DNA of 64,000 nucleotides from Escherichia coli (GCF_036507355.1 NZ_AP027877.1); one strand, 5' to 3'; positions 11,124-44,599 are shown, counted from the first letter of the stretch. Notes: generated from the letters alone by a model not told the origin. Made by a program: numbers and translations.

Positions 11124-11873
11124 AATCATCATTCATGTATCAGGAAGAGTTAAGGGTACAAGGGGTACTCGATGGCGGTCTATATTTCATGACTAACGCC
11201 ATTTAAAGGAAGAAGTGCGGTGGGTGGTTTCGAATGAGGGCTGGTGTTTTGGTACGTGGCACGCCACTGCAATGTATTTATCCATCAGTACTCATTCAAA
11301 AGTACCTGGAAAAAATGCCCGCTATGCCAAGCGGGCAAATTGCTTACATGTGGAATTAAGTAATTAACGATAAAGCCAGAGTATTATCATTTATTATACC
11401 CATTCATTTAATCAGGTTAATTACTCAAATCACTGAACTATTCTCTGTTCGCTCACTGATGATGAGTGAGTACCACAACCAATGTATTAGAACAATGCCG
11501 TAGAGTAAGGATGAAATGTCTCTACCACACCTTAAACATCTACTACTGACTAGAACACCCGCCGCAGGTAGATGAGTTTTGTGAGCGTTACAGGAGCGTG
11601 GCTATGCTCATTAACCAACGCTATTGAGATATAAATTTCTAACACTTGAAAAACGATTTTCACTAATAAATTATAACGGGTGTTTTTTATCATACAGCGA
11701 AATAACTTTTTGTTTATTAAATTTAACATTCTTGTGCTAATTTAATTAAAAAGTCCATGCGTAGCATGTGAAGCAGTTAATGCCAGCAATTGTCTCAAAT
11801 GAGCGATTTTTTATAGTGACAAACAATAATAACATTAAAAATAGCCATGTAGACATTAACTGAGGAATAGACA

Positions 11874-13223
11874 ATGTTAATTAATAAAAGCAACGGATTT
11901 AACGCTAGCGCAGTTTTGGGTAGTGGAAATTATAATGAAAATAAATCTTCTAAACACATGGAGCTACTAGCTCATAGTATTGTAAAATTAATTTGTAAGG
12001 AAGCTGCATCAGAGACGTATCGCGGTGCTCTTGAAACTTTACAAAAAATGATGTCTGAATGTAAATATAAAGAAGGCAACGCCTTTGTCATTATGGGTGC
12101 TGGAGGGCAATTAAAACGTATTAAATATGATGTTGATGAAAATAAATTAAAAATATTCAACATATACTTTGATAATAATTACGAGGTAGTTACTGATGGT
12201 GAGCCTGACGTAGTATGTTTAAGCAAGCAGGTCTGGGAAAATCTTCTCATTAAATTAAAACCGGAGATTAAAGAAAATGTGTTTTCTGAAAATAACAAAT
12301 TATCGAGAGAAAATAATGTTGATCAGTATGTTCAATCCGCTAAAAGAAATGAACAGGCCCTTTTCGATAATATAATAAAAAGTGATTTTCATGTTGCTTC
12401 ACTTCAGCCAGGTAGAACACGTAGTGTTATTTCAGAAACGCCGCCAAATGACTGTATGGAATCACGTAATTCATATGAAAACCAAATAGATGAGATTTCA
12501 TCTTTGTCAGAGTCAAAGGAACACCCTATAGATATTCAAGAAAAAACAGATGCGTTTGTGAATGAGTTCAAGGGGATATTATTTGATCAAAATGGAAGGT
12601 CTTCAGAGTTTCTACTTAATTTTTATGAATGTTGCTATGTGTTTTTACCAAGAGCGCAGCCTCAGGATAAAATCGAAAGCTATAATTCAGCACTGCAAGC
12701 TTTTTCCATCTTTTGTTCATCTACGTTGACACATAATAATATAGGCTTTGATTTCAAATTATTTCCAGAAGTCAAGCTGTCTGGAGAACATCTTGAAACG
12801 GTATTCAAATACAAAAATGGCGATGATGTCCGGGAGATAGCCAAAATTAACATTTCTCTCCAAAAAGAAGAGGGTGGTTTATATAATTTACGTGGATTGG
12901 ATTTTAAGGGATGCTTCTTTTCTGGACAGAACTTCAGTAACTATGATATTCAATACGTGAACTGGGGAACGTCATTGTTTGATGTTGATACTCCGTGTAT
13001 TTTTAATACGCCTGCTAACAATGAGAGTTATGAAAAATCATTAAAACCTGTAAGCGAAAACGGTTTAAATGGAGTCTTATCTGATCGTATTAAAAAAATA
13101 AAAATGATCACGGGTGTGGCACCATTCGATGATATTTTATTTATGGATGATGACTTTGATGATAACTCCCCTGAGGATGGTCCCGTTGAGAATATTCCTG
13201 TTATGAATAGTCCTCTTGTATAA
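11874..13223 (+). CDS. Hypothetical protein, 449 aa, AT-rich orphan (ypjB/ypjC-like by position)
   Basis: Intact ORF with GAGGAA RBS 6 nt upstream of ATG; Ser/Asn-rich N-terminus without signal peptide; pentapeptide-repeat-like stretch NLRGLDFKGCFFSGQNFSNYDIQYVNWGTSLFDV; acidic C-terminus. Confidence 0.65.
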   Translation: MLINKSNGFNASAVLGSGNYNENKSSKHMELLAHSIVKLICKEAASETYRGALETLQKMMSECKYKEGNAFVIMGAGGQLKRIKYDVDENKLKIFNIYFDNNYEVVTDGEPDVVCLSKQVWENLLIKLKPEIKENVFSENNKLSRENNVDQYVQSAKRNEQALFDNIIKSDFHVASLQPGRTRSVISETPPNDCMESRNSYENQIDEISSLSESKEHPIDIQEKTDAFVNEFKGILFDQNGRSSEFLLNFYECCYVFLPRAQPQDKIESYNSALQAFSIFCSSTLTHNNIGFDFKLFPEVKLSGEHLETVFKYKNGDDVREIAKINISLQKEEGGLYNLRGLDFKGCFFSGQNFSNYDIQYVNWGTSLFDVDTPCIFNTPANNESYEKSLKPVSENGLNGVLSDRIKKIKMITGVAPFDDILFMDDDFDDNSPEDGPVENIPVMNSPLV

Positions 13224-15708: not shown

Positions 15709-15984
15709 GTGGCTTCTGTTTCTATCAGCTGTCCCTCCTGTTCAGCTACTGACGGGGTGGTGCGTAACGGCAAAAGCACCGCCGGACATCAGCGCTATCT
15801 CTGCTCTCACTGCCGTAAAACATGGCAACTGCAGTTCACTTACACCGCTTCTCAACCCGGTACGCACCAGAAAATCATTGATATGGCCATGAATGGCGTT
15901 GGATGCCGGGCAACAGCCCGCATTATGGGCGTTGGCCTCAACACGATTTTACGTCACTTAAAAAACTCAGGCCGCAGTCGGTAA
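15709..15984 (+). CDS. insA: IS1 InsA
   Basis: Protein identical to the InsA at 8363-8638. Confidence 0.95.
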
Positions 15985-16406
15985 CCTCGCGCATACAGCC
16001 GGGCAGTGACGTCATCGTCTGCGCGGAAATGGACGAACAGTGGGGCTATGTCGGGGCTAAATCGCGCCAGCGCTGGCTGTTTTACGCGTATGACAGGCTC
16101 CGGAAGACGGTTGTTGCGCACGTATTCGGTGAACGCACGATGGCGACGCTGGGGCGTCTTATGAGCCTGCTGTCACCCTTTGACGTGGTGATATGGATGA
16201 CGGATGGCTGGCCGCTGTATGAATCCCGCCTGAAGGGAAAGCTGCACGTAATCAGCAAGCGATATACGCAGCGAATTGAGCGGCATAACCTGAATCTGAG
16301 GCAGCACCTGGCACGGCTGGGACGGAAGTCGCTGTCGTTCTCAAAATCGGTGGAGCTGCATGACAAAGTCATCGGGCATTATCTGAACATAAAACACTAT
16401 CAATAA
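15903..16406 (+). CDS. insB: IS1 InsB reading frame
   Basis: Protein identical to the InsB at 8557-9060. Confidence 0.93.
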
Positions 16407-18917: not shown

Positions 18918-19280
18918 TGGTGGAGCTGGCGGGAGTTGAACCCGCGTCCGAAATTCCTACATCCTCGGTACTACATGCTTAGTCAGTCTTTACATTCGCT
19001 TGCCAGCTGCGGACGGACACGCCACTAACAAACTAGCCTGATTAAGTTTTAACGCTTCAACCCCAGGCAGGGCTTCCACGCGATCTCTTTTGGGTTTGAC
19101 CTCTCTTGATCCCCGTCCTAAGAGCGGAGGCTAGGGAGAGAGGGCTCTAAGCAGGTTATTAAGCTGCTAAAGCGTAGTTTTCGTCGTTTGCGACTATTTT
19201 TTGCGGCTTTTTACGAGGCCAACCGCCCCTCGGCATGCACCTTGGGTTTCGCAAATCCCGTCGAATCCAGAATCAGCCCC
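18918..19280 (-). ncRNA. ssrA: tmRNA (SsrA), 363 nt
   Basis: Reverse complement begins GGGGCTGATTCTGGATTCGACGGGATTTGCG and ends ...GTTCAACTCCCGCCAGCTCCACCA; tag-peptide reading frame region present. Confidence 0.97.
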
Positions 19281-37014: not shown

Positions 37015-37036
37015 AGTGTTGCCTTTTTGTTATCAA

Positions 37037-37066
37037 TAAAAAAGGCCCCCCGATTTGGGAGGCCTT
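37037..37066 (-). terminator. pheA attenuator terminator hairpin
   Basis: Minus strand: aaggcctccc-aaatc-gggggg cc followed by TTTTTT, between pheL and pheA. Confidence 0.75.
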
Positions 37067-37112
37067 ATTGTTCGTCTTCGCATTCTGTTTCACACGACGA
37101 AACGCCTCCCAT

Positions 37113-37160
37113 TCAGGGGAAGGTAAAAAAGAATGCGAAGAAAAACGGTGTGTGTTTCAT
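37113..37160 (-). CDS. pheL: pheA leader peptide, 15 aa (MKHTPFFFAFFFTFP)
   Basis: Minus-strand ATG 37158-37160 to TGA 37113-37115; seven Phe codons. Confidence 0.85.
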   Translation of the reverse strand: MKHTPFFFAFFFTFP

Positions 37161-37263
37161 GTTTGTTTCCTTAAGTGACTTTAGTACAGTACCCGTACTG
37201 TTTTCACGCTGTCAACAAAAAACGCGCCCGAAGGCGCGTTGGCGATACACTCAATATAAAGGA

Positions 37264-41896: not shown

Positions 41897-41958
41897 CCTA
41901 AAGAATCAAGACGATCCGGTACGCGTGATTTTCTTTTCACATTAATCTGGTCAATAAC

Positions 41959-41987
41959 CTTGAATAATTGAGGGATGACCTCATTTA
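41959..41987 (+). promoter_or_regulatory. Sigma-32 heat-shock promoter of clpB
   Basis: CTTGAAT (41959-41965) and CCTCATTTA (41979-41987). Confidence 0.6.
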
Positions 41988-42025
41988 ATCTCCAGTAGCA
42001 ACTTTGATCCGTTATGGGAGGAGTT

Positions 42026-44599
42026 ATGCGTCTGGATCGTCTTACTAATAAATTCCAGCTTGCTCTTGCCGATGCCCAATCACTTGCACTCGGGCACGAC
42101 AACCAATTTATCGAACCACTTCATTTAATGAGCGCCCTGCTGAATCAGGAAGGGGGTTCGGTTAGTCCTTTATTAACATCCGCTGGCATAAATGCTGGCC
42201 AGTTGCGCACAGATATCAATCAGGCATTAAATCGTTTACCGCAGGTTGAAGGTACTGGTGGTGATGTCCAGCCATCACAGGATCTGGTGCGCGTTCTTAA
42301 TCTTTGCGACAAGCTGGCGCAAAAACGTGGTGATAACTTTATCTCGTCAGAACTGTTCGTTCTGGCGGCACTTGAGTCTCGCGGCACGCTGGCCGACATC
42401 CTGAAAGCAGCAGGGGCGACCACCGCCAACATTACTCAAGCGATTGAACAAATGCGTGGAGGTGAAAGCGTGAACGATCAAGGTGCTGAAGACCAACGTC
42501 AGGCTTTGAAAAAATATACCATCGACCTTACCGAACGAGCCGAACAGGGCAAACTCGATCCGGTGATTGGTCGTGATGAAGAAATTCGCCGTACCATTCA
42601 GGTGCTGCAACGTCGTACTAAAAATAACCCGGTACTGATTGGTGAACCCGGCGTCGGTAAAACTGCCATCGTTGAAGGTCTGGCGCAGCGTATTATCAAC
42701 GGCGAAGTGCCGGAAGGGTTGAAAGGCCGCCGCGTACTGGCGCTGGATATGGGCGCGCTGGTGGCTGGGGCGAAATATCGCGGTGAGTTTGAAGAACGTT
42801 TAAAAGGCGTGCTTAACGATCTTGCCAAACAGGAAGGCAACGTCATCCTGTTTATCGACGAATTACATACCATGGTCGGCGCGGGTAAAGCCGATGGCGC
42901 AATGGACGCCGGAAACATGCTGAAACCGGCGCTGGCGCGTGGTGAATTGCACTGCGTAGGTGCCACGACGCTTGACGAATATCGCCAGTACATCGAAAAA
43001 GATGCTGCGCTGGAACGTCGTTTCCAGAAAGTGTTTGTTGCCGAGCCTTCTGTTGAAGATACCATTGCGATTCTGCGTGGCCTGAAAGAACGTTACGAAT
43101 TGCACCACCATGTGCAAATTACTGACCCGGCAATTGTTGCAGCGGCGACGTTGTCTCATCGCTACATTGCTGACCGTCAGCTGCCGGATAAAGCCATCGA
43201 CCTGATCGATGAAGCAGCATCCAGCATTCGTATGCAGATTGACTCAAAACCAGAAGAACTCGACCGACTCGATCGCCGTATCATCCAGCTCAAACTGGAA
43301 CAACAGGCGTTAATGAAAGAGTCTGATGAAGCCAGTAAAAAACGTCTGGATATGCTCAACGAAGAACTGAGCGACAAAGAACGTCAGTACTCCGAGTTAG
43401 AAGAAGAGTGGAAAGCAGAGAAGGCATCGCTTTCTGGTACGCAGACCATTAAAGCGGAACTGGAACAGGCGAAAATCGCTATTGAACAGGCTCGCCGTGT
43501 GGGTGACCTGGCGCGGATGTCTGAACTGCAATACGGCAAAATCCCGGAACTGGAAAAGCAACTGGAAGCCGCAACGCAGCTCGAAGGCAAAACTATGCGT
43601 CTGTTGCGTAATAAAGTGACCGACGCCGAAATTGCTGAAGTGCTGGCGCGTTGGACGGGGATTCCGGTTTCTCGCATGATGGAAAGCGAGCGCGAAAAAC
43701 TGCTGCGTATGGAGCAAGAACTGCACCATCGCGTAATTGGTCAGAACGAAGCGGTTGATGCGGTATCTAACGCTATTCGTCGTAGCCGTGCGGGGCTGGC
43801 GGATCCAAATCGCCCGATTGGTTCATTCCTGTTCCTCGGCCCAACTGGTGTGGGGAAAACTGAGCTTTGTAAGGCGCTGGCGAACTTTATGTTTGATAGC
43901 GACGAGGCGATGGTCCGTATCGATATGTCCGAGTTTATGGAGAAACACTCGGTGTCTCGTCTGGTTGGTGCGCCTCCGGGATATGTCGGTTATGAAGAAG
44001 GTGGCTACCTGACCGAAGCTGTGCGTCGTCGTCCGTATTCCGTCATCCTGCTGGATGAAGTGGAAAAAGCGCATCCGGATGTCTTCAATATTCTGTTGCA
44101 GGTACTGGATGATGGGCGTCTGACTGACGGGCAGGGGAGAACGGTCGACTTCCGTAATACGGTTGTCATTATGACCTCTAACCTCGGTTCCGATCTGATT
44201 CAGGAACGCTTCGGTGAACTGGATTATGCGCACATGAAAGAGCTGGTGCTCGGTGTGGTTAGCCATAACTTCCGTCCGGAATTCATTAACCGTATCGATG
44301 AAGTGGTGGTCTTCCATCCGCTGGGTGAACAGCACATTGCGTCGATTGCGCAGATTCAGTTGAAACGTCTGTATAAACGTCTGGAAGAACGTGGTTATGA
44401 AATCCACATTTCTGACGAGGCGCTGAAACTGCTGAGCGAGAACGGTTACGATCCGGTCTATGGTGCACGTCCTCTGAAACGTGCAATTCAGCAGCAGATC
44501 GAAAACCCGCTGGCACAGCAAATACTGTCTGGTGAATTGGTTCCGGGTAAAGTGATTCGCCTGGAAGTTAATGAAGACCGGATTGTCGCCGTCCAGTAA
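42026..44599 (+). CDS. clpB: Chaperone/disaggregase ClpB (AAA+), 857 aa
   Basis: ATG 42026; [44 protein letters not shown]...; two Walker A motifs GEPGVGKT and GPTGVGKT. Confidence 0.96.

What the first reader, a model, noticed from the sequence alone, without database searches (positions are those of the whole stretch)
11124..11873. 750-bp AT-rich ORF-free spacer between tRNA-Ile2 and the orphan ORF
No ORF of 60 codons or more on either strand, strongly AT-rich, containing a near-palindrome (ctcactgatgatgagtgag, ~11444-11462) and a stem-loop (gcccgct-atgcca-agcgggc, ~11319-11341). tRNA 3' flanks are common integration sites, so this could hold a relic attachment site, an H-NS-silenced promoter for the orphan ORF, or a small RNA.
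Basis: seen in the sequence. Interest (0 to 1): 0.25.

Follow-up and report, generated by a model that had tools for sequence, protein, structure and literature searches.

The report
ileY–ypjCB spacer hiding candidate sRNA
This gap is the ordinary intergenic region between the rare-isoleucine tRNA gene ileY and the gene ypjCB that E. coli K-12 also has, not a relic integration site, but its left half holds a 68-base stretch on the opposite strand, almost unchanged between E. coli and E. albertii, that looks like an unannotated small RNA gene.

Summary
The interval exists as described. It has no ORF of 60 codons or more and is 36.9% G+C against 49.6% for the window. The two hairpins sit 2-8 bases from the stated coordinates.

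It is the native ileY–ypjC(B) spacer: present in 3113 of 5426 complete E. coli genomes (92-99.5% identity), in K-12 at 96.8%, and never annotated.

The relic attachment site is rejected. The window has no repeat of the tRNA 3' end. In strains that carry an island at ileY, a 47-base partial tRNA copy sits directly in front of this same spacer, so the spacer is native flank.

The H-NS-silenced promoter idea has published K-12 support: RpoD holoenzyme and H-NS binding in vitro.

The spacer has two modules.
- **11124–~11437** travels with ileY and is shared with E. albertii.
- **~11438–11873** is the AT-rich, highly polymorphic ypjCB upstream region.

In the first module, minus strand 11377→11310 has a conserved GATAAT -10 box, then a body 67/68 identical to E. 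albertii (flanks 72-83%), then an 8-bp terminator hairpin with six U. I read this as a candidate 68-nt sRNA (probability about 0.45-0.5).

No transcript evidence exists. K-12 and O157 carry a stem mismatch, and K-12 Term-seq shows no 3' end there.

The parts
11048..11123 (+). ileY, tRNA-Ile2 (anticodon CAT)
   Evidence: ARAGORN; Rfam tRNA 71.6 bits; the orthologue is annotated tRNA-Ile in RefSeq.
11077..11123 (.). 3' 47 nt of the tRNA. In other strains integrative elements use this as their attachment core. It is not duplicated in this window.
   Evidence: Matches in strains 4FM, 14EC017 and MB22 start at w11077, next to an integrase gene. No repeat in the window.
11124..11211 (+). ileY 3' trailer. 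Fast-evolving, with no intrinsic terminator on this strand. Zone of Rho-dependent termination of ileY read-through (K-12 data).
   Evidence: Only 38% of aligned columns are identical to E. albertii, with insertions. No plus-strand terminator-like site. Adams et al. 2021: Rho termination region at K-12 2785734(-), about w11151, Rho score 3.6.
11212..11309 (-). C-rich, G-poor tract downstream of the minus-strand terminator. Probable Rho-dependent back-up terminator that keeps minus-strand transcripts out of ileY.
   Evidence: Minus strand has C 30.6% and G 18.4%. Adams et al. 2021: 'orphan' Rho termination region at K-12 2785647(+), about w11238 on the minus strand, Rho score 3.9. 83% identical to E. 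albertii.
11310..11377 (-). Candidate 68-nt small RNA: GGCUUUAUCGUUAAUUACUUAAUUCCACAUGUAAGCAAUUUGCCCGCUUGGCAUAGCGGGCAUUUUUU
   Evidence: 67/68 identical to E. albertii, while flanks are 83% and 72%. One segregating site in 58 unique E. coli alleles. Folds to -17.7 kcal/mol with the terminator hairpin. No Rfam family.
11316..11337 (-). Intrinsic terminator hairpin (UGCCCGCU-UGGCAU-AGCGGGCA), followed by U6 at 11315..11310.
   Evidence: Terminator scan. The same motif occurs in E. albertii. 7 of 8 pairs never vary; the eighth is a C.A mismatch in K-12- and O157-type alleles.
11383..11388 (-). -10 hexamer GATAAT, conserved in all E. coli alleles and in E. albertii. Predicted start is G11377 or G11376.
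   Evidence: The five bases between it and the conserved body (11382..11378) vary between the two species.
11393..11420 (-). Second, overlapping promoter-like site TTAACC-16-TATAAT. It also contains ATTAAA (11412..11407), the -35 for GATAAT at 18-nt spacing.
   Evidence: Promoter scan, 10 of 12 matches. TATAAT is CATGAT in divergent E. coli alleles and TACAAA in E. albertii, so it is not conserved. E. albertii has ATTACA-18-GATAAT.
11438..11873 (+). ypjCB upstream module: AT-rich, highly polymorphic, with no counterpart in E. albertii. Published as H-NS-bound in K-12.
   Evidence: Homology to E. albertii ends near 11438. Diversity is 0.05-0.10, against 0.012-0.024 for 11221-11420. H-NS mark in Shimada 2014.
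11452..11470 (.).
   Evidence: Position. Chance level. The stem is broken in O157 and altered in other alleles, and the element is absent in E. albertii.
11790..11817 (+). Promoter-like site TTGTCT-16-TATAGT, the most plausible ypjCB promoter. A GAGGA ribosome-binding site lies at 11862-11866.
   Evidence: Promoter scan. Nearly invariant across 10 alleles. Consensus match only; no experimental support.
11874..13223 (+). The 'orphan ORF': intact ypjCB (YpjCB family, DUF5507 + DUF5508). Split into the pseudogenes ypjC/ypjB in K-12.
   Evidence: NCBIfam NF050179, 924 bits against a cut-off of 650. Pfam PF17612 and PF17621. RefSeq annotation.

Best explanation
The 750 bp are the native ileY–ypjCB intergenic region, built from two modules with different histories.

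**Module 1 (11124 to about 11437)** belongs to the ygaQ–ileY unit and is shared with Escherichia albertii.
- It starts with the ileY trailer. ileY read-through stops there through Rho rather than at a hairpin (shown in K-12 by others).
- Convergent with ileY, on the minus strand, lies a small transcription unit. It has a weak sigma-70 promoter (ATTAAA-18-GATAAT, overlapped in this strain by TTAACC-16-TATAAT) and a predicted start at G11377/11376.
- The body is about 40 nt of unstructured A/U-rich RNA, followed by an 8-bp G+C-rich hairpin and six U. That gives an RNA of about 68 nt.
- I infer that this is a trans-acting base-pairing small RNA of the usual enterobacterial kind. Its target is unknown.
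- Whatever reads through its terminator is stopped by Rho in the C-rich tract 11309..11212 before it reaches ileY.

**Module 2 (about 11438 to 11873)** is the AT-rich, H-NS-bound regulatory region of ypjCB. The likeliest promoter is at 11790-11817.

**Shown here:** sequence anatomy, distribution, conservation pattern and absence of an att repeat.
**Taken from the literature on K-12:** RNA polymerase and H-NS binding, and Rho dependence.
**Inferred:** that the 68-nt unit is transcribed and acts as an sRNA.
For: Identity of the region:
- 3113 of 5426 E. coli genomes carry it, including K-12 at 96.8%.

Two modules:
- Homology to E. albertii covers only about w11212-11437.
- E. coli diversity jumps from 0.012-0.024 to 0.05-0.10 at about 11420-11450.

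sRNA-like unit:
- The minus strand has a canonical terminator, and the same motif is present in E. albertii.
- Identity to E. albertii is 67/68, against 83% and 72% in the flanks. The neighbouring YgaQ protein is only 60% identical.
- Conservation starts at the predicted +1 and ends just past the U-tract (at 11308). The 5 nt between the -10 box and +1, and the bases beyond the U-tract, differ.
- 58 unique E. coli alleles show 1 segregating site in 68 nt, against 12-15% in the adjacent flanks.
- It is single-copy and absent from plasmids and phages.

Published K-12 data:
- RpoD holoenzyme binds this spacer in vitro, and the authors' predicted hexamers fall at w11384-11412.
- K-12 shows strand-specific reads on this strand, with a bicyclomycin-sensitive stop about 70 nt past the hairpin.
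- That fits read-through of the K-12 hairpin, which is 6.2 kcal/mol weaker.
Against: - No transcript has been shown. K-12 Term-seq (three conditions) lists no 3' end at 27855xx other than the tRNA end. Other 5'- and 3'-end supplements I could search had nothing.
- The only common polymorphism (C11320T) affects about two-thirds of carrier genomes. It gives a C.A mismatch in the minus-strand hairpin but a G.U pair on the plus strand, which points weakly to the other strand or to decay.
- There is no covariation: 7 of 8 pairs never vary.
- The -35 is weak, and the perfect TATAAT is not conserved.
- No complementarity above shuffled controls to the translation-initiation regions of neighbouring genes.
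- The metagenome alleles and the E. albertii homologue were found with an exact 24-mer from inside the element, which inflates its apparent conservation. Without those 24 nt it is still 43/44.
- Only two species carry the block, so conservation depth is shallow.
Confidence: 0.5

Rival explanations
1. The conserved hairpin region is only an insulator. It is a one-way intrinsic terminator, backed up by Rho, that stops spurious or H-NS-leaky antisense transcription coming from the AT-rich ypjCB side (or from ykgMO in E. albertii) before it collides with ileY. No separate small RNA has a function.
For: - The terminator faces the tRNA and is followed by a C-rich tract where K-12 shows Rho-dependent termination.
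- In E. albertii the ykgM-ykgO operon reads toward it from about 340 nt away and has no obvious terminator of its own.
- Many E. coli tolerate a weakened hairpin.
Against: - A terminator needs only the hairpin and U-tract. Here the 40 nt upstream of the hairpin are equally invariant, and conservation begins exactly downstream of a conserved -10 box.
- The upstream sequences that would supply the transcripts are unrelated in the two species.
Confidence: 0.2
2. The conserved 68 bp act on the plus strand or at the DNA level. Possibilities are a structured part of a long ileY 3' trailer, or a protein-binding site such as an H-NS nucleation site (the sequence TCGTTAATTA resembles the published TCGATAAATT motif; that motif is recalled from memory).
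For: - The common C11320T change keeps a G.U pair on the plus strand but not on the minus strand.
- The spacer is marked as H-NS-bound in K-12.
- K-12 shows Rho-sensitive read-through from ileY on the plus strand.
Against: - On the plus strand the hairpin is followed by AAATTGCTT, so it is not a terminator.
- No plus-strand model explains the sharp boundaries.
- Protein-binding sites are rarely invariant over 68 bp.
- The plus-strand 41-codon ORF is not under protein-level constraint.
Confidence: 0.1
3. Nothing functional beyond an ordinary spacer. The near-identity with E. albertii would be a short recombination patch or chance, and the promoter and terminator look-alikes are what AT-rich DNA supplies.
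For: - No expression evidence.
- Promoter-like sites are not enriched: 7 against 4.1 +/- 2.3 in shuffles.
- Low diversity of 11221-11420 is similar to that of the ygaQ upstream region.
- Ascertainment bias from the 24-mer search.
Against: - 43/44 identity outside the search word, against about 78% in the flanks, has a probability of about 2e-4 under the flank rate (my calculation).
- The boundaries coincide with the predicted +1 and the end of the U-tract in both species.
Confidence: 0.12
4. Relic attachment site of an island integrated at ileY.
For: - ileY is used as an integration site in other strains.
- The whole ygaQ–ileY–ypjCB block is accessory and low in G+C.
Against: - No repeat of the tRNA 3' end anywhere in the window.
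- No integrase lies next to the spacer.
- In island-bearing strains the attR copy lies in front of this same spacer.
Confidence: 0.02
5. A small protein gene: the 41-codon plus-strand ORF 11234-11359, or the 59-codon minus-strand ORF 11729-11550.
For: - The 41-codon ORF is open in all 10 E. coli alleles and in E. albertii.
- PGAP calls a 94-aa extension of this frame in island-bearing strains.
Against: - Against E. albertii, 9 codon changes are non-synonymous and 2 synonymous.
- The longer frame runs out of the tRNA and is stopped by TAA at 11204-11206 in this window.
- The 59-codon ORF is broken in 8 of 10 alleles.
- No family match.
Confidence: 0.03

Closest known systems
E. coli K-12 ileY–ypjC intergenic region (about 2,785,012–2,785,761 in U00096.3)
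   Same: Same locus at 96.8% identity with the same neighbours. Published features are in vitro RpoD holoenzyme binding with an H-NS site (PMC3946193) and Rho termination regions on both strands (PMC7815308).
   Different: - Here ypjCB is intact, whereas K-12 has an internal stop.
- The minus-strand hairpin is perfect here, whereas K-12 has C11320T, which costs 6.2 kcal/mol.
- A TAA at 11204-11206 closes the long plus-strand frame here.
- Two IS1 copies bracket the block here.
Enterobacterial trans-acting sRNA genes with their own promoter and a Rho-independent terminator, including those on accessory DNA such as Esr41 on SpLE1 in EHEC (PMC5286369)
   Same: - Size of about 70 nt.
- Single-stranded A/U-rich 5' part, then a G+C-rich hairpin and a U-tract.
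- Located in an AT-rich accessory region.
- Conservation confined to the transcript.
   Different: - No transcript, Hfq binding or target has been shown.
- It is not Esr41, which lies on the ter island SpLE1.
- No Rfam family matches.
- The U-tract has only six U.
tRNA-linked genomic islands with attL/attR repeats of the tRNA 3' end
   Same: ileY is such a target in other strains. The duplicated core is the last 47 nt.
   Different: This window has no island at ileY, no repeat, and no integrase next to the spacer.
Tandem intrinsic plus Rho-dependent terminators that protect convergent genes
   Same: A hairpin with U6 is followed by a C-rich tract with bicyclomycin-sensitive termination in K-12.
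   Different: The sequence upstream of the hairpin is conserved as well, which a terminator alone does not need.

Membership tests
Trans-acting bacterial sRNA gene (own promoter plus intrinsic terminator) | Rho-independent terminator (G+C-rich hairpin followed by a U-tract) at the 3' end | tested here: met
   8-bp stem with 6 G-C pairs, a 6-nt loop and U6 on the minus strand at 11337..11310. The same motif occurs in E. albertii. It is weakened by a C.A mismatch in K-12- and O157-type alleles.
Trans-acting bacterial sRNA gene (own promoter plus intrinsic terminator) | Own promoter at the right distance upstream | tested here: inconclusive
   - The -10 box GATAAT (11388..11383) is conserved in both species.
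- The -35 is weak (ATTAAA in E. coli, ATTACA in E. albertii) at 18-nt spacing.
- The stronger TTAACC-16-TATAAT is not conserved.
- RpoD holoenzyme binds the spacer in vitro in K-12, but the strand is not resolved.
Trans-acting bacterial sRNA gene (own promoter plus intrinsic terminator) | A discrete transcript is detected | tested here: inconclusive
   Only published K-12 tables could be consulted.
- Term-seq shows no 3' end at the hairpin.
- Reads exist on that strand, with a Rho-dependent stop about 70 nt downstream.
- K-12 carries the weakened hairpin.
- No data exist for a strain with the intact allele.
Trans-acting bacterial sRNA gene (own promoter plus intrinsic terminator) | Sequence conservation confined to the transcribed part | tested here: met
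   67/68 identity against E. albertii, with flanks at 83% and 72%. One segregating site in 58 E. coli alleles. Caveat: the homologues were found with a 24-mer from inside the element.
Trans-acting bacterial sRNA gene (own promoter plus intrinsic terminator) | Base-pairing target, and chaperone (Hfq or ProQ) binding | not testable with these tools
   Only neighbouring genes could be tried. Duplex energies with the ygaQ, ypjCB, ykgM and ykgO initiation regions are no better than those of shuffled seeds.
Any described RNA family (Rfam 15) | Match to a covariance model at or near the gathering score | tested here: not met
   Only the tRNA passes. Over 11308-11380 the best hits are Trp_leader at 16.6 bits (cut-off 41) and a toxic sRNA family at 14.9 bits (cut-off 50), both at E of 4.7 or more.
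Relic att site of a tRNA-integrated island | Direct repeat of the tRNA 3' end bounding the island | tested here: not met
   A 25-mer with up to 3 mismatches matches only itself. There are no exact 12-mers, and 10-11-mers occur at chance frequency.
Relic att site of a tRNA-integrated island | Integrase or other mobility gene adjacent to the tRNA | tested here: not met
   The tRNA is followed directly by the spacer and ypjCB. Strains that do have an island show an integrase and attR upstream of the spacer.
H-NS-silenced xenogeneic promoter region | AT-rich relative to the genome and in accessory DNA | tested here: met
   29-34% G+C right of 11500, against 49.6% for the window. The block is absent from about 43% of E. 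coli genomes.
H-NS-silenced xenogeneic promoter region | H-NS occupancy, and derepression in an hns mutant | not testable with these tools
   Literature only. An H-NS site was found by Genomic SELEX in the K-12 ypjC<ileY spacer (PMC3946193). No expression test was found.
Small protein gene or type I toxin | ORF kept open with mainly synonymous change | tested here: not met
   The 41-codon ORF has 9 non-synonymous and 2 synonymous codon changes against E. albertii. The 59-codon ORF is broken in most alleles. Neither matches any family.

The most novel reading that the evidence does not exclude
An unannotated small RNA gene of about 68 nt, restricted to Escherichia, lies convergent with ileY (window 11377→11310, minus strand; K-12 about 2,785,508–2,785,575, plus strand). 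It is intact in this strain, in about one-third of E. coli carriers and in E. albertii. K-12 and O157 carry a terminator-weakening point mutation, which could explain why screens based on those strains never reported it.
Probability: 0.45. Interest if true: 0.45.

Novelty: new member of a known kind. Interest (0 to 1): 0.3.

Why it matters
Most of the finding is routine. It is a known K-12 intergenic region in an accessory, H-NS-bound block, and the attachment-site idea can be dropped.

The small RNA is the only part worth following.
- If real, it would add one more regulator to the best-studied bacterium.
- It would also show how a catalogue built on K-12 can miss a gene because the reference strain carries a damaged allele.
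- It sits beside a rare-codon tRNA and, in E. albertii, beside the zinc-regulated ykgMO genes, which suggests conditions to test.

The interest is modest. sRNAs of this type are common, and no target or phenotype is in sight.

Tried and rejected
- **Repeats of the tRNA 3' end**: none, so the att relic is rejected.
- **Small ORFs on both strands in 10 alleles and in E. albertii**: not conserved as proteins. PGAP's 94-aa 'hypothetical protein' in island-bearing strains is a frame running out of the tRNA remnant.
- **Rfam** at E up to 10 on 2 kb, and at gathering score on the whole window: nothing but the tRNA in the interval.
- **Covariation in the hairpin**: none; the sequences are too similar.
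- **Plasmid and phage collections**: the element is chromosomal only. The three 'plasmid' hits are mislabelled chromosomes.
- **Protein-guided scan of species-representative genomes with YpjCB**: only two contaminant contigs, so no context outside E. coli was gained.
- **YgaQ homologue search**: only E. coli and E. albertii, plus relatives at 32-34% identity, so deeper conservation cannot be tested.
- **Complementarity of the candidate's 5' part to neighbouring initiation regions**: no better than shuffles.
- **Esr41 as a possible identity**: it lies on SpLE1, a different locus.
- **Literature searches** for ypjC/ileY and for the sequence itself: no sRNA report.
- **Supplement searches for K-12 5' or 3' ends** in Cappable-seq, SMRT-Cappable-seq, TRS and sRNAscanner: nothing held for these coordinates. 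The Rend-seq annotation paper and Melamed et al. 2016 (RIL-seq) have no supplementary files held as text. Thomason et al. 2015 is not held.
- **Special conservation of the whole left half**: rejected. Its diversity equals that of the ygaQ upstream region. Only the 68-nt core stands out.

Full report
**What is there**

- ARAGORN finds tRNA(CAT) at 11048-11123 on the plus strand. RefSeq annotates the orthologue as tRNA-Ile, so this is ileY.
- The next long ORF is 11874-13223 (449 aa).
- Between them the longest ORF on either strand is 59 aa.
- The interval is 36.9% G+C against 49.6% for the window. The composition is uneven: 40.3% for 11124-11500 and 29.2% for 11600-11873.
The near-palindrome is at 11452-11470, so the stated coordinates are off by 2-8 bases.
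- The palindrome has only a 6-bp stem, which shuffled sequence supplies about as often.

**Identity of the region**

- The 750 bp match 3113 of 5426 complete E. coli genomes at 92-99.5% identity, always on the chromosome, with no annotated feature. K-12 MG1655 matches at 96.8%.
- The neighbours are the same as in K-12: gabP-gabT-gabD-lhgO-glaH-ygaQ, ileY, the spacer, ypjC/ypjB, a pinH remnant and ypjA.
- The 'orphan ORF' is an intact YpjCB-family protein (NCBIfam NF050179, 924 bits; Pfam DUF5507 + DUF5508). In K-12 it is a pseudogene.
- The whole ygaQ–ileY–ypjCB block is accessory. About 43% of genomes match only the tRNA paralogue. In strain K-15KW01 other island DNA follows glaH.

**Attachment-site idea**

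- No copy of the tRNA 3' end exists elsewhere in the window. A 25-mer with up to 3 mismatches matches only itself, and short exact words occur at chance frequency.
- ileY is nevertheless a real integration site (PMC8193136).
- In strains 4FM, 14EC017 and MB22 a tyrosine integrase gene and a 47-nt partial tRNA copy, starting in the anticodon loop, lie immediately in front of this same spacer and ypjCB.
- Elements therefore insert between the tRNA and the spacer. The spacer is native flank, not a relic.

**Published K-12 data**

- Shimada et al. 2014 (PMC3946193) list the ypjC<ileY spacer among those that bind RpoD holoenzyme alone in Genomic SELEX, and mark it as containing an H-NS site.
- Their predicted hexamers, printed as TTATCA-18-TTTAAT, match w11384-11412 with a 17-nt spacer. 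That is 460 bp upstream of the ORF.
- Adams et al. 2021 (PMC7815308) report two bicyclomycin-sensitive termination regions here.
  - 2785734(-) lies 28 nt past the mature ileY end (about w11151).
  - An 'orphan' one at 2785647(+) corresponds to about w11238 on the window's minus strand.
- Their Term-seq table has only the mature tRNA end in this interval.
- I derived the coordinate conversion from their 3'-end sequence for ileY. A1 shows no indels between K-12 and the window in this stretch.

**Two modules**

- In ten E. coli alleles spanning the identity range, pairwise diversity is 0.012-0.024 for 11221-11420. It rises to 0.05-0.10 for 11421-11864 and reaches 0.29 inside ypjCB.
- A metagenome scan with a 24-mer from the invariant part returned 72 loci.
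- Two of them, plus ten genome loci fetched through a shared YkgM protein, are E. albertii.
  - Their YgaQ homologue is named E. albertii by NCBI and is only 60% identical to the E. coli protein.
  - The gene order there is smpB-ssrA-ykgR-ykgM-ykgO, the homologous segment, ileY, ygaQ. There is no ypjCB.
- Homology to the window runs only from about 11212 to about 11437.
- The left part of the spacer therefore belongs to the ileY unit, and the right part to ypjCB.

**The conserved core**

Identity to E. albertii by segment:

| Segment | Identity |
|---|---|
| tRNA | 72/76 |
| 11124-11211 | 38%, with insertions |
| 11212-11309 | 83% |
| 11310-11377 | 67/68 |
| 11378-11437 | 72% |
| beyond 11438 | unrelated |

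- Among 58 unique E. coli alleles, 1 site of 68 varies in 11310-11377, against 12-15% in the adjacent flanks.
- Read on the minus strand, the features run in this order:
  - ATTAAA (ATTACA in E. albertii), an 18-nt spacer, then GATAAT;
  - five bases that differ between the species;
  - an invariant run starting at GG (11377/11376);
  - the hairpin UGCCCGCU-UGGCAU-AGCGGGCA, six U, and divergence again from 11307.
- The one interspecies difference is in the hairpin loop.
- The scan tool independently calls the terminator in both species.
- This arrangement and these boundaries are what an sRNA gene looks like.
- The 24-mer used for the search lies inside the element. Outside it the identity is still 43/44, which I estimate at about 2e-4 under the flank rate.

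**Evidence against the sRNA reading**

- No transcript has been shown.
- K-12 and O157 carry C11320T, which puts a C.A mismatch in the middle of the minus-strand stem. Folding energy falls from -17.7 to -11.5 kcal/mol.
- Over 11296-11390, 1020 genomes are identical to the window and 2067 differ. Most of the listed ones differ by a single base, as K-12 does.
- On the plus strand the same change would be a G.U pair, a weak hint toward the other strand.
- Alternatively, the weakened hairpin explains two K-12 observations: no Term-seq end at the hairpin, and a Rho-dependent stop about 70 nt further on in a tract with C 30.6% and G 18.4%.
- There is no covariation, no Rfam match, no paper containing the sequence, and no better-than-random pairing with neighbouring initiation regions.

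**Other readings tested**

- The plus-strand 41-codon ORF (11234-11359) is open everywhere. Against E. albertii it shows 9 non-synonymous and 2 synonymous codon changes.
- Its longer form runs out of the tRNA and is closed by a TAA in this window.
- The 59-codon minus-strand ORF is broken in most alleles.
- On the plus strand the hairpin lacks a U-tract, so it cannot be ileY's terminator. This agrees with the Rho dependence seen in K-12.

**The right half**

- 11438-11873 is AT-rich, polymorphic and specific to ypjCB-bearing genomes.
- The best plus-strand promoter-like site close to the gene is TTGTCT-16-TATAGT at 11790-11817. It is nearly invariant across alleles and is followed by GAGGA at 11862-11866.
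- That H-NS silences it is an inference from composition and from the K-12 SELEX mark.

**Verdict**

The H-NS-bound promoter has indirect published support. The small RNA gains a specific, testable candidate at 11377→11310 on the minus strand.
- I put about even odds on that candidate being a real transcript with a function. Interest is 0.3.

Noticed in passing
window 8363-9060 and 15709-16406: Two IS1 copies (91-aa InsA and 167-aa InsB ORFs), in the same orientation, bracket the segment holding truncated ygaQ (497 of about 749 aa), ileY, the spacer, ypjCB and truncated ypjA (542 aa against about 1526 in K-12). This composite-transposon-like arrangement could delete or move the block.
   Followed up: partly
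window 11874-13223, especially 12065-12500: ypjCB is intact here but a pseudogene in K-12. It is extremely polymorphic among E. coli, with pairwise diversity up to 0.29 and length variants of 449-492 aa, far above its neighbours. A published study reports a mild biofilm-colonisation phenotype for the K-12 ypjC mutant (PMC3646849).
   Followed up: partly
window 11053 and 11114 (tRNA acceptor stem): The ileY acceptor-stem pair 6-67 is U-A in K-12, U.G in this window and C-G in E. albertii. This looks like a compensatory series caught at its intermediate step.
   Followed up: no
L020 1853-2256; L090-L099: In E. albertii the zinc-regulated paralogues ykgR, ykgM (L31B) and ykgO (L36B) lie between ssrA and ileY and read toward the conserved element. 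ykgO has no obvious terminator of its own, so a read-through or 3'-derived form of the RNA is possible there.
   Followed up: partly
window 11322 (K-12 2,785,563): A G-to-A change at 19% frequency in one gallium-evolved K-12 population falls in the stem of the same hairpin (PMC6928379). It is probably neutral, but it is a second hit in this stem.
   Followed up: no
L014 980-1264; L015 980-1264: In island-bearing strains PGAP annotates a 94-aa 'hypothetical protein' (WP_001347906.1). It starts at the attR junction at the edge of the partial tRNA copy and runs through the spacer to w11359. It is almost certainly a spurious call.
   Followed up: yes
L013 (strain CP61_Sichuan), break at about w11289: An IS3-family element is inserted about 20 nt beyond the minus-strand terminator, and the DNA beyond it is different. 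This shows the locus tolerates disruption just outside the conserved core.
   Followed up: no
window 1780-2037 (-); 41907-42045 (+); 37036-37161 (-): Elsewhere in the window are three tandem naRNA4 (REP-type) copies, the sRNA RyfD, the Phe leader, an rRNA operon with tRNA-Glu, and ssrA at 18918-19280 with a 436-aa ORF beside it (probably an integrase, not checked). All are ordinary E. coli or Shigella chromosome content.
   Followed up: no
L003 (strain 20AR0354): Here only the first 46 bp after ileY remain and are joined to a P2-like prophage remnant next to ssrA. This is a deletion that removes the spacer and ypjCB–ypjA.
   Followed up: no
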